From Azolla caroliniana (Eukaryota; Plantae; Polypodiophyta): 64,000 bases of DNA. The translations under genes were made by a program, and so were the position numbers. Below the pieces are notes generated by a model. It saw nothing but the letters and a program-made list of their open reading frames with translations, ran no database searches and was not told where the DNA came from. Each line of letters begins with the position of its first letter. The stretch's first letter is position 1. Location of the stretch: NCBI GenBank assembly GCA_043228905.1, contig JBHGNT010000008.1, forward strand, positions 21,824,001 to 21,888,000, written 5' to 3'. Positions 10,101-54,796 of the stretch are shown in pieces.

Positions 10101-10876
10101 ATACAGAAAAGAGTGGAGCCATCATCATCTACCTCTTTCTCGTTACACATGGGAATCTGCACAAGGACCATAGGGTATCCCGCATAAGGCTGTTCTGCAT
10201 CGCCGGTGTCCAGAGATAGCACTTTCGGCACCGGACGGATTCCCTTGAGCTTGATGTAGACACAGCCAAGGCACTGCGTGACACGATCGAGGGATTGGAT
10301 GAGGAAGAGGACGATGCAAACATTGGCTAAGGACTGCAATGGGGGCCCAAGATAGTTCTCTCGGATATAAATCCACCCCACATAGGTGGACTGCAGGATC
10401 CCACGCACGTCTTCGGAGCCGGGTATGTAGATATTGGGTTGGAAATGCCATCCCTTAACGTGGGCCACAAGCTCAAACCCTAGCATCAACACTGTGGATG
10501 CGAGAAGAACTCTGAGGATGGTGTAGAGCTTACCTCTCTGCCTTTGATCTTCAATCTCCACGCCTTGGCGTAAGATGAGACGTCTGTTAATGGTGGAGAG
10601 CATGCCGAGGAAGGTCTGCGCAGACCACGCCACGCAACCTGCTGCCTGGTGAGCTCTTAGGAACATTATCCACCTGATCTGCTTCGAGTTCTTCCCTTTC
10701 CCTTCCTTCTCTGCAGACCCCAGGTTTAATGGGACCTTCGACTCCCCCGCAGAGGAGCCGTTGGAAAGTGCACCCCCGGTCGACCAGTTCTGAGGTTTCT
10801 CCATCTTTACCACCACAGATGTGGCGTCCATCCGAGTCTCCTTTGGCCATGACAGGTCTGAGCTTGGAGGCGGCAT
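7177..10876 (-). CDS. CSLC: Cellulose synthase-like C (GT2 family; probable xyloglucan beta-1,4-glucan synthase), 5 exons, 699 aa
   Basis: Exons 10876-10133, 9567-9259, 8868-8578, 8214-8101 and 7818-7177 all have GT-AG, phase-0 junctions. Motifs: [64 protein letters not shown] (D,D,D,QxxRW), YEWVVTKK, and C-terminal [10 protein letters not shown]. The long N-terminal extension (VVVKME...KQIRW..L.AH.A.GC) is typical of CSLC rather than CSLA. Confidence 0.96.
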
Positions 10877-11957
10877 ATTGTATCTGACACAGTATCTGAC
10901 AGTTAATCAATCCGATGATGTCTTTCTTATCTTCCTTCACTAATTCTCTGGCTATGGCAGGACCGAATCGCGATCCGCAGTGACTGATATACACATGAGT
11001 AGATCAACAGATCCGTGGCCAAAGCAATCCGAGGCCTTCAAAACTCTGAAATCTGAGAAGACAGGAGGCTTAATGATCTTGAATCTGAGATCAATATGTA
11101 TCCTCCTCCTCCTTCGGCCTCTGAGAAGCTGAAATGTAACTCGAGTCAAACCTTGTATTATGCCTTCACCAGAGAAGGTCGATCTCAATATAGCTAAAGA
11201 CTGTTGTGAGAAGATCGATTTGCGCAGAGGATTGAGTAGAATAATCAGACCTGCTCTCTGCTACTCGTGAGATCTATAGTACAGGCGGCGAGCAAAGATC
11301 GAGGTCGAACCAGAAGATCGAGCTTGAAATGGATTGGATTAGGCAGAAGATGAGCAGAGCAATAGATTGGTTGAAGGAGAAGGAAGGGGTGGGATTATCT
11401 GTCTGAGGAAGGGGATTTTTGGTTTCGATAGGGAAAGCAGACGATTTTGGATGGAACAGACCAAATCAGATCGATGATCTGTCGACTGAGGGGGGGGGGG
11501 GGTTAAACAGGCGCCATTTAAGGAAAATATTCTTCTTTCCTTCCTTTTTCTTTCTTTTTCTTTTTCTCAAATGTGTTTCTTCCTTTTTCTCGATTGTCTT
11601 TCCCTTGGATCTAAAGCGACAAATAGAAGAAGAAGAAGAAGAAGAAGAAGAAGAAGAAAATACAAAAAAAAAAGGAGAGGAAAAAGAACTTTTTCAAGCT
11701 ATGGCGATGGCGCTAGCTTCTGACAAGGGAGAGATGATGTCGGCGATCAGAAGCAAAGGATCTTCTGGGGAGAGACAAGAAGAAGAAGGAAGAAGGAAGA
11801 AGGAAGAAGAAGACTGATATGGCTATGGATAATGAAGGCTGGAGGAGCTTCAAGAAGAAGCTATGGAAGGCTTCAAATTCTCGCCCATTACATTGGAACC
11901 AACAGAGATGCAGGGGAGCGAAGAGAAAGAAAAAAAAAAACCCACAGACAGACAGAA

Positions 11958-23714: not shown

Positions 23715-24144
23715 TGTCAAAGTAAACGTGCGGAAGTGTTCGACAAACCGGCTCAGCCGGATAGCAACAGAAGATGAGAAGAAAAGTTAACACACATAGA
23801 GAGTACGCGTACATAGGACAGAGACAAAGGGAGAGAACGTAAACTCTATTAAAAAATACTCTTGATATTCTGTACATAGAATGTGCTCAGAGAGCACTTT
23901 TATACAAGTCCATAAAGGACTAATAGGTACTTCAATGCTCATACGAGCGACTGACACTAACTCCCAAAAATATGCCTACGTACTAGGCTGGATCCGTAGG
24001 CCTCTAACGGCCTACCGGTTTCAATCCGATCGGCTCCTGGTTTGGGATATCATCCGGACACCGATCCAGTTCTCCGTTCCGGATACTGATCCGGCTCTGG
24101 CTTATTCAGCCGATCCAGATCCGGTTGAGCTTGCTCGCTCAACA
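23715..24144 (-). repeat. 3' LTR of Copia element A
   Basis: TG...CA ends, aligns with 36449-36870, adjacent to the PPT. Confidence 0.92.
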
Positions 24145-24759
24145 GTCCCCCTCAAGCTCAACTTGAGGTCAGATCGTGGTGTCAGTTTCTATGGTAACCA
24201 GTTCTTCCGTCCGATTCCTTCTGGCGTCCTCCTGCCTTGCTTGCGCTCCTCGCCCGGTCTTGTTCCGCTTCCTGCGACCCGTCTGGTTCCGCACACCTCG
24301 ACCTTGTCGGTCGGCTTGTCTGCTCAACATGCCCATTTCAACTTCCTCGCTGTTATGACTCCGGTGCTTGTCAACCTGTTGGCTCCTCCGTGTTGGCGTC
24401 GACTTTCGTTGCGTTCGTGTTCGCTTGGCCTTTAGTAGATCTAGCTCTTCCGAATCCATCTGTTGAACCAAATCGGTTGTCTCTGATTCGTTCCAGCTCT
24501 TGTCTGAGTTGGTAGTCTCCAACTCGTCTTCCGTTTTTAGGCCCTTCACCACATCGGACCACGTCCGAGGTCTTGGCCTTCTTCCGGTCGGCTTTGTCCT
24601 TCTTGACTCTACCGCTGCTGTTGTTTACTCTGACTTGTTCAGATGTGCCGACTCCTTCGGTCAATGCGGCTTCCTTTTTCTGCTTATCTCCCCACTTTGT
24701 TCTTTCTTCCTCTCTGGTTCCTTGTCCGGTGCCATTTGGTGCCATCTATTCCCATTCCT

Positions 24760-25638
24760 ATTCTCCCCCTCAAGTGCGGCACGTCGAGATGCTGAACACC
24801 GAGCATTTCGGTGAAGTGTTGCAACTTGTCCGATTCGAGTAGTTTGGTGAAGATATTGGCAATCTACTGATCCGTCTGAACATATCGAAGTTCAACTTCA
24901 TCGCTCAGGACCCGCTCACACACGAAGTGATAATGCACTTCTATGTGCTTTGTCTAAGCATGGAATACAGGGTTCTTGGTGAGCTGAATGCTGCTCATGT
25001 TGTCACAGTAGATCAGGATCGGGGTCGGTACCTCGATCCGGAGGTCACGCAACAGTCGCCGAAGCCAAATGGGTTCACAGGTGGCATTGGTAGCGCCCCG
25101 ATACTTAGCCTTAGTGCTCGACAGAGCCATTGTCAGCTGCTTTTTGCTACTCCACGCAACAACCACGCTACCTAGAGAAAACATGTAACCGGAGGTGGAT
25201 CAACGATCTGATGCATCACCAGCCCAATCGGCATTGGTATATCCAACTAGCTCTGCAGTTATACCGTGTCGGTATAACAGTCCTCGGTCCTTTGTGCCGC
25301 TAACATACCGGAGTATCCGGTGTGCTCATTGAAGGTGCTCGACGGTCGGCTTCTGCATGAACTGGTTGATCACCTTGATTGGATAACTGATGCCGGGTCG
25401 GGTGATCATCAAGTATATAAGGCTTCTGACAATTTGGCGGAACCGTTTCTCATCATAGGCCGGTTTGGAGTTAGGATGTAGCTTCAGGTTCCGGTCCAAG
25501 GGTGTAGAGATTGGTCTGCATTCTGTCATGCCGAACTTGTACAACATATTCAACACATAATGACGTTGTGAGAGTAATATGCCATTGGGGGTCCGGATCA
25601 CCTCGATCCCAAGGAAATAATGAAGGTCCCCCAGGTCT
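24760..25638 (-). pseudogene. Copia A RT C-terminus and RNase H remnant
   Basis: DLGDLHYFLGIEV, LSQRHYV, SLIYLMITRP, WSSKKQ...SSTKAKY, IYCDNMSSI..KNPVFHA, IANIFTK. Confidence 0.88.
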
Positions 25639-26140
25639 TGTCATGGACACACCAATGCTAGACTACGACAAAGCACAAATGACAAGGCTATGATCAATAA
25701 GGTTACGAACATGGAACTCGACGTGATGAGGCTAGAAACTCGGGAAGTTGGGAACGATGAGATGAGGAACTTAAGACGCTAGGGACAAATACAAGAGCAT
25801 AAAGAAAAAGATGTAAATCAATGAGAGAAGATGAGGCTAAACAAGAATACTAGATTGATGTGTCAATGACTGGGCCCGTTGAATCCCTTGAAAGGGACCA
25901 AGAAGGTTACAAGTATTTATACTGTAAGTTGAAGTACATGCACTAGAATATTTTGAAGAATATTCTAGAACCTTGGAACTTTCTAGAACTTTGTAGATGT
26001 CTAGAGAGTATACCTAGATCATGTACATCTTATACAATGATATGTAGATCAAATATATTTGATACAATGCTCATATGAAGATGGTTGAGCATGATGTATT
26101 GATCATGTGAGGTTGTGAGTTCAATCCTCACCCACTATAT

Positions 26141-26652
26141 TGCTGGGAAATCGGTCCCTCCGGATGGGATCCGGTGATGAATGAAGAGGACCCGGTGAGA
26201 ACCGGAAGAAAAGACATATTTGTAAATATGTTTTGGGTAAGCCTATTGAGGCCATATTTGTAAATAGACTTAAGTTCATATAAGTATAAATATGACTTAG
26301 GGCAATCACTTTGGTAGATGCTGATAGAGAGTATTGTTGTTACATTGTTGTTGTAGAGATAATTGTTGTACAGAGAGAGAGGAGACACAGAGTTATACTC
26401 TATTGTAACCGCCGGTTGGCGAAGATACTGAGCATGAGGTCGTTGCCTCCGAGTCTCTAATTGTACCTTTCTCATATAGTGAGAGTTTGGAGTCTGTGGG
26501 CTCCCGTGGTTTTTCCCTATTTGGGTTTTCCACGTAAACATCCTGTGTACTCTCCTTTGTATTCATCTCTATTTCTATTTCTGTGTTTCATTCTAATCAA
26601 AGTGATTCAAGACTCGGTTGTGGCCGAGCAATATTCCGCGCTATTATCTTCA
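26141..26652 (+). mobile_element. Solo LTR (family D) inserted in the 3' LTR of element B
   Basis: TG...CA ends, TSD TATAT on both sides, TATAAATA box, and the GTGGGCTCCCGTGGTTTT...GGTTTTCCACGT motif; homologous to 37003-37570. Confidence 0.85.
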
Positions 26653-26762
26653 TATATATTTAATGTCATTGTATTGTGACATTCTCCTCCCCTTTATGGC
26701 CGCGTTTTCGAAAGTGTGGTGTAGGGGTGAGCTAAAATAGAAAACCAAAGTACATTGAGGAG

Positions 26763-27520
26763 TGAGTGACCATGAGTAGTCCTCACCAGAAATAAGAGCA
26801 CGGATGAACTCGAGTGACCATGTGTGGTCCTCACTAGATATTGTAACACCAACGGGCGTGAGCGAACATGTATGGTCCTCACCGGAGACTGGAGCACCAA
26901 TGTGAGCGTGAGCGACCATGTTCGGTCCTCACTGGGAATTGGAACACCAACGGGAGTGTGAGCGACCATGCACGGTCCTCACCGGGAACTGGAACACCAA
27001 CGGGCATGAGCGATCATGTATGGTCCTCACCGAAGACTGGAACACCAACGTGAGTGAGCGACCAGGTGCGGTCCTCATCGGGAACTGGAACAACAAAGGA
27101 CATGAGCGATCATGTGCGGTCCTCTCCGAGAATTGGAACACCAACGGACGTGAGCGACCATGTACGGTCCTCACCGGGAATTGGAACACCAACGGGCGTG
27201 AGAGACCATGTATAGGTCTCACCGGAGACACAAACACGAACGGAAATGAGCAACCATGTGCGGTCCTCCCTGGGAACTAGAACACCAATGGGCATGAGTG
27301 ACCATGTGTGGTCCTCACCGGAGACGCGAACAACGGACGTGAGCGACCATGTGCGGTTCTCACCAGGAACTGGAACACCGAGCGTGAGAGACCATGTATG
27401 GTCCTTACCTGAGATGCAAACACCAACGGACGTGAACGACCATGTGCAGTCCTCACCGGAGACATGAACACCAATGGAGGTGAGCGACCCTGTATGGTCC
27501 TCATCGGGATCTGGAACACT
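26763..27520. repeat. Tandem array of about 16 x 48-bp units inside element B
   Basis: Consensus approximately GAGCGACCATGTRCGGTCCTCACCGGGAAYTGGAACACCAACGGGCGT; a 16-aa periodicity is visible in the ORF track. Confidence 0.92.
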
Positions 27521-27639
27521 TGACGACGATGAATGCTAGGCAAAGTAGTGTTGATAACGACACCAATAGGTGTTGCAGATGATGATGTCGAAGATGAAGC
27601 AATGAAAACAATGATGTTGACTCTAAAAGCAATGACTGT

Positions 27640-27885
27640 GACTATGGCAATGATGGAAATAGAGAAATAGATGAAGAGGATAAGAAACACAGAGATTGAG
27701 ACGTTGAGGATAAAAAGAAACACAAAGATAGAGATATAGAGGATGATAGAAAACACAGTGATAGGGACAAAGATGATAAGAAACACATAGATAGGGATGA
27801 TGATGATAAGAAACACATAGATAGAGATGAAAATGATAGGAAACACATGGAGAAGGATGACAATGACAAAAAACGCAGAGATAGG
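27640..27885. repeat. Degenerate 27-33 bp purine-rich tandem repeats (GATGATAAGAAACAC...GATAGAGA), continuing at 28628-28870
   Basis: Repeated GATAAGAAACACA(T/G)AGATAG units, interrupted by the hAT MITE. Confidence 0.7.
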
Positions 27886-28619
27886 TAGCAATGGGCCTGG
27901 TTCGGTTTCGGTTCGGTTCGGTTTCTTGGCCTTCAAACCAAACCAAACCATTTATTAATAAAAAAAACCGAACCAAACTGTTTTAAAATTTATGAAGCCA
28001 TTTAAACCAAACCGTTAAACCAAACAGTTTAAAGCATAGGAGAAACCAAACCGTTTACGAAAAATTTAAAACCAAACCAAACCATTTTTTATTGATATTA
28101 ATCATTATACTTATTATAAATTTGTGTGAGAAAATCATCGTAAATTTATTCATCATACTTATTATAAAATTTGTCATCATACTTATCATAATTTTGGTCA
28201 TCATACTAATCATAAATTTGATCATCATACTAATCATAAATTTGATCATCATACTTATCATACTTGAACATCATAAATGAAAAAGAGACTCTACATATAA
28301 TACATATAAAATCTAATAAGTTAAAACAAGAGTTTAAAATTAAAAGTTGAAAGTTATAACTTATAGAAAATATTTATGAGTATTTTTTAACCTATAAACC
28401 TATAAACCTTTAAACCTTTAAACCGAACCACATAAACAAAGACCGATAAGCCGCTAAACTGCTAAACCGGTCAATTCAAAACCGAACCGAACCGAAACCG
28501 AAACCGATTAGTAACATTTGAAACCAAACCAAACTGTTTAGTTATCTTTGAACCTATAAACCGTTAAGCCACGGTTTTTCGGTTCGGTTCGGTTTGAGCC
28601 GAAACCTGGCCCATTGCTA
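27886..28619. mobile_element. hAT-superfamily MITE (734 bp)
   Basis: TIRs TAGCAATGGGCC...GGCCCATTGCTA, perfect 8-bp TSD GAGATAGG, subterminal AACCG/GGTTC repeats, AT-rich core with ATCATACT repeats. Confidence 0.92.
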
Positions 28620-29127
28620 GAGATAGGAATGTGGAAGATGATAAGAAGTGCAAAGATAGGGATAATGATAAGAAATGCGGAGATAGATATGAACTAAAAA
28701 ACAAAGACGATGATGAGGAGAAACTAAAAAGACAGAGACGACGACGAGAAGAAACTAGGAGATAGAGATGGCGAGGAAGATAGGAAACGAAGGGATGTTG
28801 ATGATGGTAACTCTGGAAGCAAGGACAGTGACGATGGTAACTCTAAAAGCAAGGGCAATGACGAAGATGGGTGATGCTTCCAATTGGAAGGGATTCAAAC
28901 TATCACAGAGACACCAATGCTAGACTACGATAAATCACAGATGACAAGGCTACGACCGATAAGGTTACGAATGTGGAACTTGACGTGATGAGGCTAGAAA
29001 CTCGGGAACAATGAGATGAGGAACTTAAGACGCTAGTGTTGGGGACACGACCGTCAATGCGGAAGTGCAAGCAACATTCGTGATGAAGAAGAACCTATGT
29101 ATGCACGAGCAAGATAGACACAGAGGG

Positions 29128-29163
<36 letters not shown>

Positions 29164-29553
29164 CACAAAGGAACTGTTTTATTCCAATAGCAACAGTTAC
29201 AAATGACAACCAACCCTCACTAAAGGTTAAAAAGTCACTTTATATAGTGACTATCCTAGGGCAACTGCTCTTTATGCTATTTACAGAAATAGCCCGAACT
29301 TGGGCTGTCCAAAGGGACAATGTGAATACGGCCATTATACACTCGTATTCAACACTCCCCTGTAATGGGCGTATACATGGGTTATCTAAAGAATTACAGG
29401 TATATATACAAGGTTTATCGGACATATCAGTTTTGTCAGAGTCGGCAAGATCCGAAGACAGAGGACCGAACCGGTCGGGTCGGAAGAGCTAAAGTCGATC
29501 CTTAGAGAACCGATGTCGGTGGTCCGAAACCATCATGTGCTGTGTGTCCGACT

Positions 29554-32500
29554 TTAATCGGACCGATTTTTCGTTACGCCCATCCGGTGCCGAAGGGACC
29601 GGAAACGATCCGCTGAAAGACACTTGGTCATTCCATCTGTGACATTATCGGTTGTGGATATCTTCTCTAGACCGATTTTCCCTGAAATGACGTAGTCCCG
29701 AACAAAGTGATATCGAACGTTGATATGCTTAGAGGCGTTGTGGTGAACCAGATTTTTTGACAAAGCAACAAAACCTTGACTGTCGCTGTAGACATCTGGG
29801 GCCGAGTCGGAGTCGACCTATCGAAACGTGTGCGCCAACTGACTGAGCCATAAAGCTTCTTTTGCCATGTCAGACACAACTACATATTCCGCTTTGGTCT
29901 TTGAGGTGGCTGTGCACTCTTGAAGTTTTGACTTCCACGAGATTGCTCTATTGTCAAATTTGAAACAGTATTCGGTTGTTGATTTCTGATTGTCCACACA
30001 ACCGACGAAGTTCGAGTCGATGTAACCGACTACGCTTGAGGTTGAGTTCGGCCTGAAAAGAATGCCGTGGTCTTTTGTGCCAACTAGATATCTGAACACA
30101 TGCTTGACTGTGTTCTAGTGAGATCGGCCAGGGTTGTGCATGAATCTGCTAATGACTCCTACGGCGTGAGAAATATCAGGCCGTGTCGCAACCATCGCGT
30201 ACATGAGGGAGCCGACTGCCAGTGCATACGGTACCAACTTCATATCTTCTCCCGCTGGACCGGATGTCGGACAATCTCGCTGAGACAACCAAAGGTTAAT
30301 GGGGAGCACGGTCGAAGCAGACTTGGCCGATTGCATGTTGAAGCGTTCTAAGACACATCCGATGTAGTCGGTTTGAGACAAGAAAAGTTGTTGTGTATCG
30401 CGATACCGACTAATCTTCATACCAAGTATGTGTCTTGCCGGACCGAGGTCCTTCATGGAAAACTTCAACCGCAGTTGCCGAACGAGTTCGGTGAGCTCTC
30501 CGGCATGCCGACCGGAGAGTAGCATGTCGTCCATGTAGATGATGAGGAAGACGGGAGACCCGTCTTGAGCTGTTTTGGTGAAGAGACAGTGGTCCTCATC
30601 GCTCTTTGAGAAGCTGACTGATTGGATCAAGTCGTCGAACTTCTTGTACCACTGTCGGGGTGCCTGTTTTAGGCCGTAGAGACTCTTCTTGAGTCGGCAG
30701 ACTAGATGTTCCTGGCCGGATGCCACAAAGCCTTTCGGCTGCTCCATATAGATTTCCTCCTGTAGGTCACCGTGGAGGAATGCTGTTTTACATCTAGCTG
30801 AATCAGCTCCAAGTTGTTGGCGGCCACGACGCCGAGCATGAAACGAAGGGTCGTCATTTTCACCACTGGTGAAAAGATTTCGTCGAAGTTGACGCCATAT
30901 TCTTGTCGAAATCCCTTCGCAACTAATCTGGCCTTGTACTTTGGGGTGGTCGAGTTGGACATCTCTTTTAGTCGATAAGACGCACTTACACGGAAGAGCA
31001 CGTCGATTCTTCGGTAATTCGACCAAGTCCCAAGTCTTGTTTGCCCGAATGGAGGCATTTCCGTCATTTTCACCACTGGTGAAAAGATTTCGTCAAAGTC
31101 GACGCCATATTCTTGTCGAAATCCCTTCGCAACTAATCTGGCCTTGTACTTTGGGGTGGTAGAGTTGGACGTCTCTTTTAGTCGATTGACCCACTTACAC
31201 GGAAGAACAGGTCGATTCTTCGGTAATTCGACCAAGTCCCAAGTCTTGTTTGCCCGAATGGAGTGCATTTCCGACTCCATCGCCAGATGCCATGTGGTTG
31301 AATCGGCAAATGCCGATGCTTCTTCATAAGACGTCGGTTCGCCGGCGTCGGTAAAGAAAATTCCGGGAGAGTACCTCTCCGGAGGTTGCGACAGTCTCTC
31401 GGATCTGCGAGGTATGACTGGACTAGTTGCACCGGGTGTCGATGTCGGATGGTCGGGAACAGAGCCATTCGGCTGTGTCGAATCGGTGGATTCGGTGCGA
31501 GAGTTGTCGGTTACCCGTGAAACCGATCTCGTGTTGTGGGTTGGGCCGTCAGGAAGGGTTGGCACTTCGGAAAATATTACCCTTCAGACTTCAATAGGCC
31601 TTTCGGCCGTTTTATGCATAGTCGACTCGTTGAACACAACGTCTGAACTTCGGACGATTTGTCTGTGTTTGGGGTGCCAGAGTTGGTATCCAATCTCGCC
31701 ATCGGGTCCATATCCAAGAAAAACACATTTCCTTGACCTTGGTTCGAGTTTCCGGCAACCGAAGATCCTCAATTTATCATAATTCGGCTTACTGCCGGTC
31801 CATATTTCCTGAGGTATTTGAAGTCCTAGAGGTCTACTTGGCGACATATTGATTATGTGTACTGCCGTAAGTAGAGCCTCCGCCCAGAAGCCATTCGATA
31901 GTCCAGAGTGTTGGAGCATGGATACTACGCGTTCTTGAATCGTCCGATTCATGCGTTCAACAATTCCGTTCTGCTCCGGAGTATAGGGTGCCGTATATTC
32001 ACGTCGAATGCCGCCTTCCCGACCGAATTTGATGAATTCTTCAGACTTGAATTCTCCTCCATTGTCGGTTTGGAGACATTTCAGTTGCCGACCGGTCTGA
32101 TTTTCGACCACTGCAAGCCATTAAGAGAAGATCGAGAACACCCGATCTTTTGTTCTGATGGGGTATGCCCACACCTTCCGACTCGAGTCATCAATAAAAC
32201 TGACGAAGTACGAAGCACCGTCGAGAGACTGATGTGGCATCGGGCCACAGACGTCCGAATGGACCAAATCGAGGGGACTCGATTCTCTTGGTGCTGATGT
32301 CGGATGTGGTTTGGCTACCTGTTTGCCGTACTGGCAATGCTCGTAGAATTGGTGATCTGAGAAGGAGAGTTTGGGGATGTAATCGGCTCTGGATAGGTGC
32401 GTTATGCCGGCCTTGCTGAGGTGTCCAAGTCGTCCGTGCCATAACAATGACACGGGGATATCAACCAAAAATAAGTCACCCTCTTTGAGTGTGACATATA

Positions 32501-33755
32501 AAGGATACAAGCAATGTACCTTTGGTCCTCGAGCAAGCAGGAGGTTCCCTTTGTGGAGTGTCCACCCTCCTGATGAGAATCCAGCACGGATGTCGGCTTC
32601 GTCATGTTGTCTGACTAAGATCAAGGGACTTGAGAACTCAGGAACGTGTCAGACGTTGTGTAGTACGAGTATAGAGCCTCCTGGAAGATTGAGCTCTACG
32701 GTGCCGATTCCGATTATAGCACAGTGCTGGGAGTTTCCAACTCGAACTGAGTCAGAGTGCCGGTCCGAGTATTGCTGAAACTGAGATCGGTGAGGTGTCA
32801 CATGATACGATGCGCTTGAGTCCAGGAGCCATGTGCTAGATTCCTCAGTCGTAAGCAGAACTTCTGATTCGACTGAGTTCTCTATGGACAATATGTTCGG
32901 GTCGGTCGTCAAGATTTCGGCTGAAGAGCCGACGTAGTTGACCTCCTCATGCCGGCTACTCTTATGATCCGCTCTTTGAGCTTTGTCGGTTTTTGCTTTG
33001 AGTGCCCGACAGTCGGCTTTGATGTGTCTCGGTTTCTTGCAATAGTTGCAGATTCAGTTGTCCCGAGACTTGCTCCAGCTTCGCTTACTGTTCGGTGGTC
33101 GGGAAAAGCTTCTTCCCCGGTTGTTCGATCGGTTGGTCGAGCCTTGTACTACATAAGCTTCATTTGCCGAGTCTTTGGCGAAAGACTTTCTCCGAGCTGC
33201 TTCAGTCAGGATTGCGCTCGTGACTTCGGAGTACTTAACAGTAGTTGTTGAAGCATTGCACACGGTTGTAACGAAAGTTTCCCATGAAGAGGGGAGACTA
33301 CTCATGAGTATCATTGCTCTGAGTTCATCCTCGATTTCCGTCCCCTGAGACGAGATTTGGGAGCTTATGCTTTCGTAATCGTTGAGGTGTGCCTGAACCG
33401 AATCAAATTCTTTCATCTGCAGGTTGTAGATGTGCCGGATCAGATACATCCTCGTTGCGGCAACCTTCTTTTCATAAGTTTCCGATAGTGTTTTCCAAAG
33501 TTCAAACGCTATCGTGCATGATTGCACTGTGAAGTACACTAACTCTGACATGTGCATCCGAATCGTGGCACGAACGATTCTGTCCAGCTTTAGCCACTCA
33601 TTTGCCTTGTATGCTTCTGGAGGATTTTCATTCTCAATCAGGTCTATCTGATCCTTGACTATGAGATAGTCCTGCATTTGTTCCTTCCAGAAGTTGAAGT
33701 TCGAACCATCAAAACTCCTTAGAATCATCTCCGATGAGTTGGATGTTGATGCCAT
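29554..33755 (-). pseudogene. Copia C gag-pol polyprotein with a few stops and frameshifts
   Basis: FDGSNFNFWKEQMQDYL (gag), WLLDSSASYHVT (PR), LWHGRLGH / LDLVHSDVCGP / TDNGGEF / PEQNGIVERMNRT (INT), YKARLVAKGF / YGLKQAPRQW / YMDDMLL (RT), SWKSKLQ / KHINVRYHF / NVTDGMTK (RH). Confidence 0.93.
30852..31272. repeat. About 210-bp tandem duplication within the RT of Copia C
   Basis: The KARLVAKGF...FSPVVKMT segment is present twice (30852-31061 and 31062-31272). Confidence 0.9.
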
Positions 33756-34916
33756 CTGCTTCGGTTTCGGTTGATAAGACTTGGTTCGGAGTTGACTACG
33801 AACCTTAGTGGGGTGCAGTCGGTCGACTCACCCGATATCGTTCTAGTCGGTTTTGAACCTGAGACGGTTTGGTTTCAGATACTTGTTGTTGAACTTGCTC
33901 GGAGTGACTCCGGTAACTTGAGGGACAGAACCAGCTGGTCTTCCCAAATGTTGCTGAGTCGGAGTGAGCCCGGTTAGCTTCCGATTGTATGCCGAATACC
34001 GATTACGCGAAACCGATAGTTTGGGCCGATTTTGCTTCAGACGACTGCAACGATGAGAGGGATAGATCCAACTGATCCTCCCGAATGTCGATCAGCCGAG
34101 TGAAGCACGAAGTGGTTGTTGCTCAAGGAGCTCCCCTCAAGCGGTTACAATCATAGGAACAAAGTACAACCGACTAGCTTACTCCAATTTGTGATTTAAC
34201 ACAGTGAGATGCGAGCTTTTGTTTTTCTTCTCCCTTCTCTGTTCTTCAAAGAAACCGAAAACAGAATGTTGTGTTGTGCGATGACGGTCGGCAGTGGGTT
34301 GAAGAACCTCCAATGCTCTGATACCAAATGTTGGGGACAAGGCCGTCAATGCGGAAGTGCAAGCAACATTCATGATGAAGAAGAACTTGTGTATGCACGA
34401 GCAAGATAGATACAGAGGGAGAGAGAGAGAGAGAGTGAGGCACAAAGGAACCGTTATATTCCAATAGCAACAGTTACAAATGACAACCAATCCTCACTAA
34501 AGGTTACAAAGTCACTTTATATAGTGACTATCCTAGGGCAACTGCCCTTTATGCTATTTACAATGGGACGATGTGAATACGGCCATTATACACTCGTATT
34601 CGACAACTAGGAACCAATACAATAGCATAAAGACAAAGATGTAAATCAAGGAGAGAAGATGGGGCTAAACAAGAATACTAGATTGATGTGTCAATGACTA
34701 GTGTTGAATCCCTTGAAAGGGACCAAGGAAGTTACAAGTATTTATATGCTGAGTTGAAGTACATGCATTACTTGAAATAGATAATCTACTAATAATCTAC
34801 TAAGATATACATAACATGAGCATATATTTGGACGTGTTGGTTAGAACACAACACTTGACTATATATAAGAGGTCAAGAGTTCAAATCTTGACATGATTGT
34901 TGTCATGTTTGTGACA

Positions 34917-36350
34917 ATCCTGAAGCCTCTGGTAATTAACGTGGCCGATTCGCTGATGCCAAAGATCGATGTCCGATTCAATCTTCTGTCCTTTGGAAAA
35001 CATAGCGGTGTCGACGTCATTAATGTTGAGGATGAACATCGTCCCTTCTCTGCGTCCTTTCACAATTATCCGGCCTTCTTCCTCGATGAAGCACTCGAGG
35101 TGTGTAAACCGCACCTGCATCGCCTGGTCGACGATTTGTCCAACTGACACCAGGTTCTTTGTGATAGTCGGAACGTGTAGTAGGTTCATCAGCTTCCCCT
35201 TTTGTCCTACATGGCTTAAAGGGACTTCTCCGACATGCACAATCAGGTGAGGGGTGTCGTCTCTTGTTTCGCCAATCCCCAGTTGTTCCGGTTTCTCTAA
35301 AATTGAGAACTACTCTTCATGGCTCGTCATATGGTTAGATGCTTCGGAATCAACATACCACACTTCCTCCGATCTGGAACTGGCCCCTTGTGCTTCATCA
35401 CAAAGGTTGGCCCCTTTCTGGTTTTCCCAGTTCCGAATCCTTCCGATGCTTCAGCATAGTGCGAGCTTTGCTGGTTCCCTTGTCCGGCCTTGCCGGATCC
35501 GGATTCATCTGAATCGGCGCGCTTCTTCCAACACTCGCTTTCTTGGTGGCCTTTCTTGCCATAGTACCAACATTCCGTGTCGGCCTTTGATTGCCGGTTT
35601 TTGGCTCCGACTTGACTCCCCCTACTTGTGGAGGGTTCAGAATTGTTGTTGGCACCGTCTCTGTGCTTTCGATTCTGCTCTTGACGGCCGCCTCCATTGC
35701 GCATCGACCCACCTCGTCCTCCACGCCCACGAGGTCGATCCACCTCCGTGTACAACATCCGACTGTCTGATTGAGTGGTCCTCGACCCACTCGCGTGGTT
35801 TTCTTCGACCATCAACATGGATTGTAAGTCGAAGAAGGACGGTGGCTTCTCTCGCGTGCAGATCGCCATCCGGATTCGCCCGTACCGTTGTGCTAGACCA
35901 TCGAGGCAGATTTGAATCATCTCCTCTTCATCCACCGTCACGTTGATGGACCCGAGCGTGTCGCAAATCTCCTTTATCTTGGTGGTGTGGTCGGTCACGG
36001 ATATATCCTCTGTCGGATATTGTTGAGCTCTTGTCGGAGCTGCAACTTCCGTGCCGTGGTACTAGTGGCGAAAATCTTCCAGAGATTTTCCCAGGCCTCC
36101 TTTGGCGTTTTTGCATCTACTAGCTGAGCATCTGATCGTGCACACCGGATACGAGGCAGTACAATACTTGGCTTGCTCCTTCTCCCATGCCGGGAAGTCC
36201 TTGTGTGCCGGCTCTGGTGCGACCTCATTGGTTCCTTCCACATAGTTCCAATATCCATGCCCCAACGGGTATTGCTGCATTTTATATGACCAGGATGCAT
36301 AGTTGCTCCGGTCGAGCTTTTATGTGGGAAGCGAACTTGCCATACCTCTG
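34917..36350 (-). pseudogene. Copia A gag-protease-GAG-pre-integrase remnant (frameshifted)
   Basis: MQQYPLGHGYWNYVEG, TPKEAWENL...RKLQLRQEL, zinc knuckle CWYYGKKGHQESECW, LLHVPTITKNLVSVGQ, LWHQRIGHVN. Confidence 0.88.
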
Positions 36351-36448
36351 TCCATTTCGGTTCTTTGTCTGATGTTGCCAGGTATTAGGGTTTGTCTTCG
36401 AAGCGTTTGTCGATTGAAGAGGTTCTCAACCCTCGCGCTTTGATACCA

Positions 36449-36870
36449 TTACAAAGTAAACGTGCGGAAGCATTCGACAAACCGGCTCAGCCGGATAGCA
36501 ACAGAAAATGAGAAGAAAAGTTAACACACACAGAGAGTACGCATACATAGGACAGAGAGAGAGAGAGAGAGAGAGCATAAAATCTATTAAAAAATACTCT
36601 TGATATTTTGTACATAGAATATGCTCAGAGAGCACTTTTATACAAGTCCATAAAGGACTGACAGAAGTACCGACAGGTACTTCAATGCTCATATGAGCAA
36701 TTGACACTAACTCCCAAAAATATGCCTACGTACTAGGCTGGATCCGTAGGCCTCTAACGGCCTACCGGTTTCAATCCGATCCGACTCCTGGTTCCAGATA
36801 TCATCCAGACACCGATCCGGCTCTAGCTTATTCAGTCTATCTGGATCCGGTTGAGCTTGCTCGCTCAACG
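36449..36870 (-). repeat. 5' LTR of Copia element A
   Basis: Aligns with 23715-24144 and lies immediately upstream of the PBS; terminal dinucleotides are mutated. Confidence 0.92.
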
Positions 36871-39613: not shown

Positions 39614-39860
39614 GGGTTGCAAAGATGCATGCGAAATTTGTCTTTATGTAAAAAAATGTGCAAATAACATGAGACTAATAGGTACTAGAGAGTGTGATTT
39701 TGATGGGTACTTTAATATCTCACATCATATCTTTTCATTCCTCTTTTTCTTTGGGACATTAAAGTACCCATCAAAATCACACTCTCTCATACCTATTAGT
39801 CCTATGTTATTTACACATTTTTGTACATAAAGACAAATTTCACGTTCATCTTTGCACCCC
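39614..39860. repeat. Long inverted repeat / foldback MITE-like element (arms about 110 bp, loop about 28 nt)
   Basis: 39614-39722 is the reverse complement of 39751-39860 with scattered mismatches. Confidence 0.88.
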
Positions 39861-41300
39861 CCCTGCCCCGGTTCACACACATCCGACAAATTTTCTCCTA
39901 GTAGCCGGAATTCCCCATGACATCCACCCCCACCAAACCACACATCCTCTGGTATGCGTCGATCTAGGGAAACAGTAGGGGTTCCGGGTCGTTCCTTACT
40001 CGTCCTCATCCGAACGATCGCCGATCCAATCCTCATCCGGCTCCTTGTCCTCGTCCGCGCTTTGGGCCCCTACCTCTGGATCCGGTTCCGCTTCATGTCG
40101 CTTCTTGAATGCCTTGATATGCTTCCCCGCAACCGGTATCAAGATCCTCGTTTCGTCAAGCTCCGTAAGGTGGTCGGTTGCATTGTCGTTTGCACTTGTC
40201 ACCACATAAGGTCTGAACCATCGTCTCGGGAACTTCCGAGTCGACCGGTGTTGATTGTCAAGGCTGGTGTCATAGACCAACACCCAATCACCTTCCTCGA
40301 TCTTTTTCAACCGGAGTTGGTGCGTTGGTCAAACCAATCCTTCTTCTTCTTCCTTGCCTCTTCTACCCTCGGCATCGCCCGTTCCACGTCCTCCGGCCTT
40401 TGCTCAAGTTGTCGGATCTGCGTGCCAGCATCTCCTCCCGACTCATCTCATCTGACATCCATGAGGCTATTGTTCGCTCTACTAACATGATGGGTTTCTG
40501 CCCGAACATGAGTTCGACGAGCATATACTTGGTTACCGAACTGTGCATAGTCTAGTCCGCCCATAGCGCATAAGGTTGTCTCGGCCAGTTGTTGACTCGT
40601 CCGTCGCATGCCCACAATATCTCTTTGACGATCAATCCATGCCTTCTTTCAACCTTCCCATTTGCTTCCAGATTGTACGTCGTTGTGAGGGAAAGCTTGA
40701 CCCCTAGTCGGTCGAATAGCTCTTCGGCTTCTTGCACATCCAGCTCCCCTCAGCTGGCCACGATCTTTCCCACACACCCATACCGACAAATCACATCCTT
40801 GATCAGGAATCAGCATACCGCTACAGTCGTCTGGTTCGTCAATGCCCGACCCTCCACCTGGTTCGTCAGGTCTTCTCGCGCAAGCACAAGGTACCGCATT
40901 TGGCCTACCCCGATTGACATCGTGACCAGGTCGACCATGCAGTTAAAGTGAATGGCCGGCGGGTAGGTCGGGTGTAACTCATTTCGGTGCTGGACTCTGG
41001 AATGCACTTGGCAGCTCTCGCATGTCGTCATGAAGAGATGCATGTCCTTGTACATCTCGGGCCACCAGTACCTCTCCTTCAACTTTTTAAGCGTGGCCCA
41101 TGTTCCCCAATGTCCGGACCAGGAACTCTTGTGGAACTTCGACATTAGCACCGTATGGTCGTCCTCCTTCGTCATCACTTAGAGTGGTGTGTCGGTCCGC
41201 TTCTTCGGATGCCGCCCGATATTCCTGTCTCGTAGGAAGAACGTATATGTATTCTTCTAGATCTAGCTCGCCTCGTCCTTCATCCTTCATCTTGTCGGTG
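39860..41300 (-). mobile_element. Ty3/Gypsy integrase remnant with PPT and truncated 3' LTR
   Basis: HHCC zinc finger (H..WSGHWG...RYWWP...CESCQ), DLVTM..YLVLAREDLTNQVEGRAL, EANGKVER, GPY-like RWFRPYVV; purine tract GGTGGGGGTGGA followed by TGTCATGG at about 39921. Confidence 0.85.
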
Positions 41301-42204: not shown

Positions 42205-42745
42205 GCCAAATTAATTAAAAATTAAATAAATAAAAATACACTAAATTAAATAAACATTTATGTTTAATTAATGAAATAAATAAATAAGAAATAGTTAAGC
42301 CATTAGATTAAATAAACATTTAATTTAAGTGAATTAAATCAATAAAAAAACATTAATTAAACCATTAAATTACATAAACATTTAAGAGATAAAAAAAGTT
42401 AGCCCAAAAACCTATAAACCGTTAAACCAAACCACTTAAACCTAGAAATCGATAAACCCTAGTTTTAGAACTAAACTGAATTGTTTATTAATAATTAAAA
42501 TCAAACCAAACCATTTAATTATTTTGGAACTTATAAACCTTTAAACCATGGCTTAACGGTTCGGTCCGGTTCGAGCCGGAACCGGGCCCATCGCTACGAG
42601 TCACGGAAGTAGGTGGCATTAGAATTTCACAATCGCTAAGCGGTGATTTGGGTGAACACATGGGGAATCGGTAATGGTTCGGTTCGGTTCAAACCGAGCC
42701 GCGAAAACCACAACTTAACGGCTTAACGGTTTGATGGTTTAGGTT
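42205..42745. mobile_element. hAT MITE remnants related to 27886-28619, immediately upstream of the aspartic protease promoter
   Basis: One TIR, GGGCCCATCGCTA, ends at 42596; AAACC/GGTTC subterminal repeats; AT-rich core; a second subterminal block at 42676-42745; no partner TIR found. Confidence 0.7.
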
Positions 42746-42869
42746 GCTATTTGCGAGTATCTACCATAACGAGCGAGCTCGATCGACGGGTGATTAGAAG
42801 AAAAAAAAGTCCGGAAAATTTGGTTACCGTGGGCAGAGAAAAGGCTCGCGTATACATATGTTGAATTGG

Positions 42870-51839: not shown

Positions 51840-51886
<47 letters not shown>

Positions 51887-51984
51887 GTTTAGGGTTTAGG
51901 GTTTAGGGTTTAGTTCTGTCCACACCCATGGGACATTTGGGCCATATATGCATATGGATTGTATCAGGCCGGCCGATCATGGGT

Positions 51985-52015
<31 letters not shown>

Positions 52016-54796
52016 GTTTAGGGTTTATGGTTTAGTTCAGTGCACAGCATAGGGCATTCGGGGCAACACACGCATGCATGATCGAATCGGGTGGGACGAT
52101 TAGGAGTCGTGAGAGAGAAAGAGAGGGAGAGAGATTCAATTATTCCCTTCGGAGGTCAAATCTGACATATATGAGACCAAAAATATTGCATTTCACATAA
52201 TACATGTGAAAGTGAGTAGCAACTCTCGATGTTTGAGACAAAGAGAGACAAAGAGAGACAAAGACAAAGACAAAGACAGAGAGAGAGAGAGATGAACCAG
52301 AGAGCACTTTGTGCTTTTGCACTCATTGTTCGATATAGCAGAGGACGATATCAGACATTGGCTTTTTGTAGGGAATCGATTGGTTGTAGGTGATCTATGT
52401 TCTATGTAAATGGTCAGACACTATGGTGAGGAGCGAACTTCGGTTCTCCCCAAACTATGGCTTCAATGACGCTACAACATAAACCACCGAGCCAACTAGC
52501 CATTGACCGTGTGATGTAGTCATTGGTCTAGGTATGGATGACATTATACTTGCAAAGCATGTCAAAGGCCATGGGACCAAGGATGGGAACATGTATGTCA
52601 ACATAAAGATAACCCCTCCTCGGCACCCCCCCCCCTTGATAATCACGCAATGCAACATGTTGCAATAAACGATTGAAAACCTTACCATCTATGGTACCTT
52701 TACTTAGTCTTCGACCAAAGATAATCCCTCGTGAACAACTAGGATTCTATCACGTAAGTTTTTTAATCAGGCTTTTGGATGTCATGTTTCTAGTCTCCCA
52801 TTATTAGGACATAGATCAAATTTTGTTCCTTTTTTTAGCATGTGGATCAATTTCATGTTGGAAAGAGTTGTGTTGGTTAGAAGACTTGCTACCTGCATTG
52901 TGTAGACATTATACTATATATATATATTCAAGTAGCATATTCATGTTATCAACCTTTTTCCAAATAAATGTGAGGAATTCGTATGATTACAATAAGTAGC
53001 ATGTGGAGGAGGTATAATCATTTGGTACATACGTGAGAAGTTACCTTAGATGAGAAGTTCTACCCATATAGGGTACACAAAAGTTAAAAGTTCACCATGA
53101 GTAGCTTCCACAACCTAATAAAATTTACATGCAAGCCCCAACAATCATTGTTAAAATGTGTTCACTAGTGAAATTTACTACCAACACAATAATAAGTTAT
53201 AACTAGTGAACCATTTATCTAGGCATACTTTAACCTTAAGGTTGCTTTAACTACAACCTAGTGTGAAATTCCTAGGACAAAGAGAAAAGTGTTGGATCAT
53301 TCTTTGGACAAAACATTAGAGGAAGGATCTCTCCTTTGCAATCATTAATCTAGTTTCCAAAGAGGGATTCTTTGATGACATGTAGTATCAATGAGCATAT
53401 CAAAAAGGATATTGATCCAATTGTTGTTATACTAGACCACATTTTGAACAATATATTGTCAACTATAATCAATAAAATGTTCACTTTTGTTAAACCTAGA
53501 ATGTAATCAACATAACTTATGATTGCAACGAAGAGAGAAAATCACAACCAATTGAATCCTCATCTTAAAATGTCATAAGGTAAATCTTCGGTAAACAATA
53601 AAACACTTGGAAATGCCCTCTAGTTATGGAATATTGATTTGTTGAGATTTCTTAGGGTGGCTCGTCATATATTGTTGAGTATATCTAAAGAATGACAATG
53701 AAGATGTCAATCTTAAATGGGAAGTTTATAGGTAGACAATGAAAGCTTTGTGGTTGCTCCAAATAAGTAGAATCATACCTAATGTGGTGTTGTGCACATG
53801 TAGACCAAATGCAAAATCATAACATGATATTTATATTGTGTAATTACGGACTCAATTATTGTTGTTGGATTTAGGGTATAAAACGTAGATACCTTGAAAA
53901 GTTGTAGGAAACTTTTGGCCCTTAAAAAGAAAATGGAAGATCCTTGGATACATCATACCTTCACATGGCAAGGGCATGCACTAACAGAATTTAGACTTAA
54001 AAGTATGAAGTGGTGACTCTAACAAAAGGATATACGTAACTTCCAATGTCAGAAACACTTCAGAACAAAAGAAGGAAGAAACTTATAGGTACTTTTCTGG
54101 TTCTCTGTATCATCCTCCTTTGGATAAGGGAAAAGAAACTAACATCATACAATGTCCCATTTTGCTGCCCCCTAGCAAGGTTACCAGTATTAAACTAGGG
54201 AGTTGAACATTAAAGTCCTCTAGAAATTGGCTAGCTAGAAGAGAGGTAACTAGATTTATTTCACTTCGTGAAATCTTGTTCCACTTCTGGCATTACGAAT
54301 GTATTTATAGAGCTAAAGTAGCATTGATCCCCAACTACATCCACATCTCATACACTTGAAAGTGTGATGAAGTGCTCTCTAGATGACAATCTTACTAACC
54401 AAGTAGAATTGAGATAAAGCATCACACATCACTTTGGGATAAGTGAAATGGCCATGTTGCATACTCTCTTTATACTCAAGTTTAATTTATTTTCATTTCT
54501 CAAATATGTAAACAATCCAACTGTAAAAGGTGTATATCTATCTTAGGCCTCTATAGTGCCATTAGTATACTTCTTCCCTATTTCTCCCTTTATCCATCAT
54601 GTGTGCACTTAGCGTCTTTTTTCTTGTCTAAATAGAGAGGGAGTGATTGATTATTGAAACTAATTGTGTTCCATTATGTTTGCAGTGTTTGTGCAATGCT
54701 TGTGCCGCCAACTTTAGATATAAACATAACATGGCAACATGTCCACTTTGCCGTCAAAATGTACAATCTCTTATTAGAATTCATAATTCAAACTAA
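50457..54796 (+). CDS. LOG2/LUL (MGRN1/RNF157-like) RING-HC E3 ubiquitin ligase, divergent; 3 exons, about 443 aa (start uncertain)
   Basis: Exons about 50457-50881, 51010-51805 and 54686-54796. DAR2-like segments: TIKNHVNIHKASLKL..FKLSFAFDA..G, F..G..QEF, VVKAE, AQIT, V..Q......YEVHEIYG. The RING is split by an intron: CVVCLGEPRDTLLLPCRHM|CLCNACA...TCPLCRQ. Confidence 0.85.
51841..52040. repeat. (GA)n microsatellites followed by short telomere-type (TTTAGGG)n tracts in RING gene intron 2
   Basis: (TTTAGGG)3 at 51888-51908; degenerate copy at about 52017-52035. Confidence 0.8.

What the first reader, a model, noticed from the sequence alone, without database searches (positions are those of the whole stretch)
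28888..34746. Non-autonomous LTR element B shows a Tf1-type self-priming signature instead of a tRNA primer site
Seen in sequence: directly after B's 5' LTR (minus strand, 2-nt spacer) there is no TGG-type tRNA PBS, but TTGAATCCCTT (28898-28888). This is the perfect 11-nt complement of AAGGGATTCAA inside both LTRs (34714-34704 and 25889-25879). In both LTRs that motif starts exactly 32 nt downstream of the first T of a TATAAATA box (34746 and 25921), where Pol II initiation is expected. Established knowledge: S. pombe Tf1 primes reverse transcription by annealing the first 11 nt of its mRNA to its PBS, and self-priming has been proposed for Tcn1-type chromoviruses of non-seed plants. Inference: B is a coding-free LTR parasite that self-primes and borrows RT/RNase H from a self-priming Gypsy, a combination I do not know to be described for plant TRIM/LARD-like elements.
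Basis: partly seen in the sequence, partly recalled or inferred. Interest (0 to 1): 0.85.

Follow-up and report, generated by a model that had tools for sequence, protein, structure and literature searches.

The report
Self-priming non-coding fern LTR retrotransposon
A multi-copy, protein-less jumping gene from what is likely a fern has no tRNA landing site; its primer site instead pairs with a stretch of its own repeat that is predicted to be the start of its RNA, so it likely primes its own DNA copy as yeast Tf1 does, using enzymes likely borrowed from a chromodomain Gypsy element, a known trick in a new carrier.

Summary
The motifs are at the stated coordinates and are not chance. Across 42 metagenome loci, B is a multi-copy, non-coding LTR family of about 2.4 kb. 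The post-LTR 11-mer is the exact complement of the LTR motif at 5 of 6 LTR-leader junctions. The motif sits 32 nt after TATA in 32 of 46 LTR rows. The pairing extends to about 33 bp with the LTR end, like the R-U5 stem of Tf1. Sushi-type ends, a matching PPT junction and a chromodomain remnant in one copy (L007) tie B to Tf1/sushi (Tcn1-like) chromoviruses found beside B copies. Corrections: the host is likely a fern; the window's B is a chimera of two subfamily copies without TSD; B is neither TRIM nor LARD by size. Not shown: transcription start, cleavage, covariation, the third Tf1 duplex, a helper with B's LTR. One PBS variant breaks the pairing. Self-priming is already predicted for plant Tcn1 and TAR lineages, and this scan noted similar non-autonomous elements in three other genomes. 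New variant of a known kind; moderate interest.

The parts
34606..34916 (-). B 5' LTR, first part (U3 subfamily type 1, TATA, R start), begins TGTCAC
34739..34746 (-). TATA box of 5' LTR
34704..34714 (-). Predicted 11-nt self-primer (predicted RNA +1..+11)
   Evidence: start site inferred from TATA distance only
34682..34698 (-). R arm of the predicted R-U5 stem (+17..+33)
29037..34605 (-). Nested Copia element C with tRNA-Met-type PBS, inserted in R/U5 of B's 5' LTR; TSD CTAGT/CTAGC. It separates primer from PBS by 5.6 kb in this copy
28901..29036 (-). B 5' LTR, second part (U5); last 18 nt are the U5 arm of the stem; ends GTGATA (family ends GTGACA)
28888..28898 (-). PBS, exact complement of the predicted self-primer, after a 2-nt spacer
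28840..28887 (-). Leader just after the PBS; predicted 9-bp hairpin in related copies
26682..28900 (-). Non-coding internal region (1477 nt without the MITE): 30-bp pyrimidine-rich repeats and a 48-bp array
27886..28619 (.). Nested hAT-type MITE, 8-bp TSD CCTATCTC; absent from other copies
   Evidence: (joint 27878-28621 in 2 of 4 runs); the hAT label is recalled from terminal TAG and 8-bp TSD
26760..27519 (-). 48-bp tandem array, about 15 units
26682..26695 (-). Polypurine tract abutting the 3' LTR
25639..26681 (-). B 3' LTR (U3 subfamily type 2), TGTCAC...TGACA, 526 nt without the nested solo LTR
26141..26652 (+). Nested solo LTR of another family, TSD ATATA; absent from other copies
   Evidence: (joint 26135-26653 in 3 of 4 runs)
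25914..25921 (-). TATA box of 3' LTR
25879..25889 (-). Second copy of the 11-nt motif, in the 3' LTR
23718..36869 (-). Host Copia element A (LTRs about 36869-36452 and 24143-23718); broken in the gag-pre-integrase region left of B and resuming in RT right of B, with the stretch between missing

Best explanation
B is a multi-copy, non-coding LTR element of about 2.4 kb whose PBS is the exact complement of an 11-nt motif in its own LTR, and it likely primes reverse transcription Tf1-style with enzymes likely supplied by a Tcn1-like chromovirus from which it likely descends. Shown in sequence: PBS-R complementarity, constant TATA spacing, Sushi-type ends, PPT, no coding capacity, a chromodomain remnant in one copy. 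Predicted by folding: the primer pairs with the PBS and the next R bases pair with the U5 end, about 30-33 bp in all. Inferred from Tf1: RNA polymerase II starts at the motif; the RNA is packaged by the helper's Gag; the helper's RNase H cuts after base 11; the freed 11-mer primes minus-strand DNA; the PPT primes the plus strand; the helper's integrase inserts the DNA with a 5-bp TSD. The copy in the window is likely dead: Copia C splits its leader, and it is likely a recombinant of two B insertions in Copia A.
For: PBS exact at 5 of 6 LTR-leader junctions, none with TGG. No variant at 4% or more at the 11 PBS positions in 4 of 4 DNA runs from organisms A-D. Of 46 R-start rows, 30 carry the exact 11-mer and 35 pair 11/11 with G-U allowed; the recurring A-to-G change at +2 keeps a G-U pair; spacing is 32 nt in 32 of 46 rows (8 had no TATA scored). 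The search 21-mer that fetched the loci excluded primer and PBS. Primer-PBS pair probabilities 0.9-1.0 for bases 2-11 in 4 of 5 intact leaders folded with 60 nt of downstream sequence. R-U5 stem: 16 of 17 columns pair in most of 34 LTRs. Ends fit the Sushi motifs TGTYANR and CNTNACA (PMC3601003 Table 3). A flank of L002 encodes an RNase H fragment 88% identical to an intact PR-RT-RH-INT-chromodomain ORF. Such ORFs end KGGIMS, KGGIVS or RRGDSVMN across their PPT-LTR junction; B's junction reads KGRIMS. L007 carries B's 48-bp array, then a chromodomain-tail remnant (i-E 0.0018 among 258 frames; next non-chromovirus hit 2.2), then PPT and a B-type LTR. Tcn1 elements: 83% predicted self-priming (PMC6317226 supplement 5).
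Against: No start-site or expression data. No compensatory change between PBS and R, or within the stem (of 75 changed cells 31 stay paired, none convincingly on both sides), so one conserved sequence is being counted many times. The PBS lacks CG and CHG sites, so its constancy may reflect low mutability; antisense R contigs also lay there and dilute variants. One junction (L029, second) has TTGTTCACCTT, 4 mismatches to an unchanged R, and the same variant appears in 3 contigs of run X11. The third Tf1 duplex (post-PBS with LTR) was matched by 15 to 140 of 300 shuffles in the 5 leaders. The stem extension alone was weak in 2 of 6 junctions (84 and 166 of 2000 shuffles). Duplex energy alone is unspecific: one G-rich stretch elsewhere scored lower than -36.8. 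No autonomous element with B's LTR and no complete TSD-flanked B copy were found; only 2 of 9 solo-type LTRs have a 5-bp TSD. A PCR survey found no Tcn1 in 26 ferns and horsetails (PMC2864245 section 7).
Confidence: 0.78

Rival explanations
1. The R-U5-PBS inverted repeat is a structural hairpin (packaging, dimerisation or polyadenylation control). Transcription starts elsewhere and priming uses another route.
For: Start site untested; third Tf1 duplex not supported; PMC2864245 found no priming signal of either kind in Selaginella SM-Tcn1 (passage).
Against: The perfect part is exactly 11 nt, begins 32 nt after TATA and ends 2 nt from the LTR end, the Tf1 geometry. No tRNA-type site exists at any of 6 junctions.
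Confidence: 0.09
2. The signal is vestigial. It was inherited from an autonomous self-priming ancestor, and the non-coding form spread mainly by tandem amplification and recombination, not by reverse transcription.
For: L027 and L029 show PPT-LTR-PBS tandem junctions; one has a broken PBS; 7 of 9 solo-type LTRs lack a TSD; no complete TSD-flanked copy was seen.
Against: All 13 PPT-LTR junctions in the loci abut B's non-coding internal end, not an integrase ORF, and 6 of them run out into six different flanks (L011, L013, L018, L027, L039, L040), which fits dispersed insertion of the non-coding form. The tandems come from high-coverage short-read contigs and may be assembly loops.
Confidence: 0.08
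3. B self-primes but its helper is not a chromovirus, for example a self-priming Copia of the TAR type.
For: TAR elements are 89% predicted self-priming; B sits in or beside Copia elements in the window and in several loci.
Against: Sushi-type ends, the chromovirus-like PPT junction and the L007 chromodomain remnant. The two Copia elements in the window have tRNA-Met-type PBSs.
Confidence: 0.03
4. The PBS binds a host tRNA or tRNA fragment, and the match to the LTR is incidental.
For: The host tRNA set could not be scanned; about 2% of plant elements use half-tRNAs.
Against: No TGG start at 6 of 6 junctions, which a CCA-ended tRNA requires (established knowledge). The self-match has a chance expectation of 2e-4 or less and continues into a longer stem.
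Confidence: 0.02

Closest known systems
Tf1/Tf2 of Schizosaccharomyces pombe and the Tf1/sushi group (Tj1, Tosmo, Tcry1, sushi-ichi, Cryptococcus Tcn1)
   Same: [quoted passage not shown]
   Different: B encodes nothing; the third duplex of the 'pretzel' was not supported and a leader hairpin is predicted in its place; nothing is shown experimentally.
Plant Tcn1 chromoviruses (REXdb; moss RLG1, Selaginella SM-Tcn1)
   Same: No tRNA PBS, self-priming predicted in 83% of 1500, 5-bp TSD; candidate helper ORFs carry an aromatic-cage chromodomain.
   Different: Reported only from mosses and club-mosses and not detected in 26 ferns and horsetails by PCR; B is 2.4 kb and non-coding against 5.5-9.4 kb.
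Plant TRIMs (including Selaginella Gypsy-related TRIMs) and Cassandra
   Same: Non-coding interior, PPT, possible tandem arrays; Selaginella TRIMs were linked to a Gypsy element (PMC4717578 passage).
   Different: TRIMs are under 1 kb with 100-250-bp repeats and a tRNA PBS (PMC6934838 and PMC3532108 passages); B is 2.4 kb with 440-530-bp LTRs. No 5S sequence. PMC4717578's main text never uses the term PBS, so priming of the Selaginella TRIMs seems unexamined there; its supplements were not read.
LARDs
   Same: Non-coding, non-autonomous LTR elements.
   Different: LARDs are larger than about 4-5 kb (recalled, not from a call); B is about half that.
Copia TAR lineage (Houba, Osr-1)
   Same: Self-priming predicted in plants.
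   Different: Copia, autonomous; B's ends, PPT junction and remnant point to a chromovirus.

Membership tests
Tf1/sushi self-primers | PBS complementary to an 11-nt LTR motif, no tRNA-type TGG site | tested here: met
   5 of 6 junctions exact; 1 has 4 mismatches
Tf1/sushi self-primers | The motif is the 5' end of the RNA | not testable with these tools
   Only TATA spacing (32 nt in 32 of 46 rows); no RNA holder listed
Tf1/sushi self-primers | Duplex of U5 end with R downstream of the primer | tested here: met
   Predicted in 5 of 5 leaders; 16 of 17 columns pair in most of 34 LTRs; R side constrained by the search pattern; no compensatory changes
Tf1/sushi self-primers | Third duplex: sequence after the PBS with the 5' LTR | tested here: not met
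   15, 41, 115, 123 and 140 of 300 shuffles did as well; best candidate L027 only borderline
Tf1/sushi self-primers | [quoted passage not shown] | not testable with these tools
   Needs biochemistry
Tf1/sushi self-primers | Ends TGTYANR ... CNTNACA | tested here: met
   against PMC3601003 Table 3; rGmr1 has similar ends, so this is not unique
Tcn1 chromovirus clade (autonomous) | Encodes GAG-PR-RT-RH-INT with chromodomain | tested here: not met
   B is non-coding; only a remnant in L007. B is filed as a derivative, not a member
Tcn1 chromovirus clade (candidate helper P0128 group) | Groups with reference Tcn1 in an RT-RH tree | tested here: inconclusive
   Quick tree of 74 rows had no labelled Tcn1 or Galadriel reference; the group sits with an Adiantum protein (SH-aLRT 97); named neighbours are fungal and protist, none from seed plants among 120 listed of 1401
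Tcn1 chromovirus clade (candidate helper P0128 group) | Group I chromodomain with aromatic cage | tested here: met
   Y, W and Y/F present, read by eye; Selaginella Galahad shares this
Tcn1 chromovirus clade | 5-bp TSD | tested here: inconclusive
   Perfect in 2 of 9 solo-type LTRs (L010, L030); absent in the window
TRIM | Under 1 kb, repeats of 100-250 bp | tested here: not met
   2445 nt in the window without insertions; about 2436 nt in L027
TRIM | tRNA-complementary PBS | tested here: not met
   No TGG at 6 of 6 junctions; host tRNA set itself not scanned
TRIM / LARD | Non-coding interior | tested here: met
   No Pfam hit in 5 window ORFs or in B-internal ORFs among 148 of 237 locus ORFs scanned; best tblastn E 0.039 from 103 pol proteins; atlas hits under 0.9
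LARD | Large size (over about 4 kb; recalled) | tested here: not met
   2.4 kb
Cassandra | 5S rRNA-derived segment in the LTR | tested here: not met
   No 5S or tRNA match at E up to 1 in 5 loci
TR-GAG | gag ORF in the interior | tested here: not met

The most novel reading that the evidence does not exclude
Ferns carry an unreported radiation of fungal-type, self-priming Tcn1-like chromoviruses, and B is their tRNA-independent parasite: a 2.4-kb RNA that keeps only the primer, a two-stem leader, a PPT and a heat-shock-element promoter, showing that self-priming works in trans with a simpler fold than Tf1's and defining the minimal signals.
Probability: 0.3. Interest if true: 0.6.

Novelty: new variant of a known kind. 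Interest (0 to 1): 0.4.

Why it matters
If true, self-priming works in trans: a helper's RNase H would cut and use a primer on a foreign, non-coding RNA, which makes B a natural minimal substrate for the Tf1 mechanism. It would extend Tcn1-like chromoviruses to ferns, where a PCR survey did not find them, which bears on the proposed fungus-to-plant transfer of the clade. In practice, LTR finders that need a tRNA PBS or protein domains would miss such families. The mechanism itself is known, and a non-autonomous derivative is the expected companion of any active LTR lineage, so the surprise is moderate.

Tried and rejected
No whole genome was held, so copies came from 42 short metagenome loci, some duplicated (L002/L023, L012/L041). 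No RNA holder was listed; this says nothing about expression. Pattern scans of viral contigs and prokaryote genomes, and helper scans of both, found nothing. L009's long ORF is a Copia host, not an autonomous B. The Gypsy fragment at window 39.9-41.2 kb is only 24% identical to the candidate helper and was dropped as helper. The chromovirus LTR in L023 shares only loose U3 motifs with B and has no PBS to test. Duplex energy as a test of specificity was dropped because G-rich windows score as low; Watson-Crick shuffles were used instead. Folding the 3' LTR alone gave z = 0.55: the LTR is not unusually structured overall. My first guess of a moss host was overturned. The 48-bp array as a protein: no Pfam, atlas or tblastn support, and unit lengths of 35, 44, 46, 49 and 53 nt break the frame in other copies. 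Ten paper searches listed no report of a self-priming non-autonomous plant LTR element or of Tcn1 in ferns; the library holds only open-licence papers, and the primary Tf1 papers and Butler 2001 were not read. The per-element table of PMC6317226 (Additional file 1) was too large to read, so B's PBS could not be compared with moss Tcn1 PBSs. The earlier-findings look-up by sequence found nothing.
Full report
Observation. A perfect complement of the post-LTR 11-mer is expected 2.3e-4 times in a 447-nt LTR and 5e-6 times in a 10-nt window.

Anatomy in the window (minus strand). B lies inside Copia A and holds three later insertions: Copia C in the 5' LTR (34605-29037), a MITE with an 8-bp TSD (28619-27886) and a solo LTR in the 3' LTR (26652-26141, TSD ATATA). 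Contigs from other runs join across the MITE (2 of 4 runs) and the solo LTR (3 of 4), confirming both as insertions. Without them B is 2445 nt: LTRs of 442 and 526 nt and a 1477-nt interior with 30-bp and 48-bp repeats ending in a PPT. The two LTRs are 92% and 90% identical from TATA to U5 but their U3 parts do not align. Among related loci three U3 types exist, with 13, 17 and 2 hits; the window's left LTR is type 1 and its right LTR type 2, while L027 and L029 carry type 1 throughout. There is no TSD, and Copia A jumps from its gag-pre-integrase region to late RT across B. Since reverse transcription makes both LTRs identical (established knowledge), I infer that this copy is a recombinant of two B insertions that deleted the DNA between them.

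Host. One exon of a cellulose-synthase-like C gene at 10028-10906 has its best named hits in Adiantum and Ceratopteris (53-58%), ahead of liverwort, lycophyte, moss and seed-plant proteins (49% or less) among 120 listed of 1127. The host is likely a fern; this rests on one gene.

The family. No genome was held. A 21-nt R pattern that excludes both primer and PBS returned 42 metagenome loci, and thousands of contigs from 4 of 4 DNA runs lay across all 30 bins of B (not a copy number). Of 46 R-start rows (44 from loci, 2 from the window; two truncated loci dropped; two pairs of loci are duplicates), 30 have the exact 11-mer and 35 pair 11/11 with the PBS if G-U is allowed; spacing from TATA is 32 nt in 32, other in 6, unscored in 8. 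Six LTR-leader junctions are available. Five have the exact PBS; the sixth (L029) has four mismatches with an unchanged R, and that variant recurs in 3 contigs of run X11. In 4 runs from organisms A-D no PBS position varied at 4% or more, while two flanking CHG positions did; low mutability and antisense R contigs weaken this as proof of selection. All 13 PPT-LTR junctions abut the non-coding interior. No B-internal ORF had a Pfam hit (5 window ORFs; 148 of 237 locus ORFs scanned), and 103 pol proteins gave a best tblastn E of 0.039.

The structure is larger than 11 bp. R +1..+38 pairs with the U5 end, spacer and PBS over 33 bp in the window. None of 2000 shuffles matched the Watson-Crick score in 5 of 6 junctions; the extension alone was matched by 0, 0, 3, 7, 84 and 166 of 2000. 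Folding the five uninterrupted leaders gave primer-PBS pair probabilities of 0.9-1.0 for bases 2-11 in four, with +12 unpaired or next to a bulge, followed by the R-U5 stem. Tf1 needs three duplexes (bioRxiv 10.1101/2022.12.06.519325, passages). B shows two; the third was matched by 15 to 140 of 300 shuffles, and a leader hairpin is predicted instead. Across 34 LTRs, 16 of 17 stem columns pair in the majority, but I saw no convincing two-sided change. There is conservation but no covariation.

The helper. Self-priming is predicted for both Tcn1 Gypsy (83%) and TAR Copia (89%) (PMC6317226, passages and supplement 5), so lineage needs separate evidence. B's ends fit the Sushi motifs (PMC3601003 Table 3, passage). 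A flank of L002 encodes an RNase H fragment 88% identical to P0128, an intact PR-RT-RH-INT-chromodomain ORF from unnamed metagenomes; named relatives among the 120 listed are fungal, protist and one Adiantum protein. These ORFs run through their PPT into the LTR and end KGGIMS, KGGIVS or RRGDSVMN; B's junction reads KGRIMS in the same register. L007 has B's 48-bp array, then two collinear pieces of a chromodomain tail (i-E 0.0018 for the longer piece among 258 frames; the shorter piece is not significant alone), then PPT and a B-type LTR with the same TATA and primer. L023 holds another chromovirus 3' end near a B LTR. A quick tree placed the P0128 group with the Adiantum protein but had no labelled Tcn1 reference, so 'Tcn1-like' is as far as I can go. 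I could not fetch the DNA of these ORFs, so their own PBSs are unseen, and that P0128 comes from B's host is inferred from the 88% match only.

Mechanism. Most likely (0.78) B RNA starts at the motif, folds back on the PBS, is cut after base 11 by a chromovirus RNase H and primes its own copying, as in Tf1 (PMC7175516 and PMC4600332, passages). Start site, cleavage, packaging and helper identity are inferred. Rivals: a structural hairpin with another priming route (0.09); a vestigial signal in a family spread by recombination (0.08), favoured by tandem junctions, the broken PBS and TSDs in only 2 of 9 solo-type LTRs but opposed by six different right flanks; a Copia helper (0.03); tRNA priming (0.02; host tRNAs not scanned).

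Comparison and novelty. B works like a Tf1/sushi element but is not an autonomous member. It fails the TRIM size and PBS tests (PMC6934838, PMC3532108, passages), has no 5S segment and is smaller than LARDs (recalled). Gypsy-related TRIMs are known in Selaginella without discussion of priming (PMC4717578, passages). Tcn1 was not detected in 26 ferns and horsetails by PCR (PMC2864245, section 7 and passages) and is listed only for mosses and club-mosses. Also consulted as passages, without bearing on priming in such elements: PMC12786077, PMC7466625, PMC11899658, PMC3350952, PMC8282616, PMC13469084. Ten searches listed no self-priming non-autonomous plant element and no fern Tcn1; closed-access papers were not searched. 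This scan has unreviewed notes on three similar non-autonomous elements in other genomes, which I did not test. Verdict: new variant of a known kind, interest 0.4.

Noticed in passing
window 25990-25935 (-); U3 of most B loci: Heat-shock-element-like arrays (TTCnnGAAnnTTC) just upstream of TATA: at least one perfect three-unit element in 24 of 39 LTRs against 1 of 450 same-size window tiles. The window's 5' LTR lacks the block. B may be heat-inducible; the motif is recalled, not from a call.
   Followed up: partly
L029:2870-2880; run X11: A PBS variant with four changes and no matching change in R, seen in one tandem junction and 3 contigs of another run. Unexplained; perhaps a decayed unit carried by array amplification.
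   Followed up: partly
L027:1-2485; L029:359-3928: Tandem PPT-LTR-PBS arrangements sharing one LTR, as described for TRIMs; from high-coverage short-read contigs, so possibly assembly loops.
   Followed up: partly
L002, L023, L007; proteins P0128-P0153: Several families of intact chromodomain Gypsy pol ORFs, 81-86% identical to P0128 over RT-RH, suggest a sizeable Tcn1-like radiation, likely in ferns.
   Followed up: partly
U3 start of B, e.g. window 34889-34870 (-) and L023:1428-1445: A short U3 motif resembling the antisense of a tRNA T-arm is shared by B types 1-3 and the L023 chromovirus LTR; no Rfam match. The resemblance is recalled.
   Followed up: no
window 39900-41230 (-): Fragment of a chromodomain-less Gypsy integrase nested in a Copia related to A; 24% identical to P0128. 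A 109-bp inverted repeat lies at 39614-39860.
   Followed up: no
window 42400-42760 and 27886-28619: A second piece of the same MITE family as the one inside B, near the aspartyl-protease-like gene.
   Followed up: no
window 30852-31273 (-): A 210-nt tandem duplication inside the RT region of Copia C, 95% identical.
   Followed up: no
window 51860-52035: Short telomere-like TTTAGGG runs next to GA microsatellites, at the end of an ORF with a partial RING-finger match.
   Followed up: no
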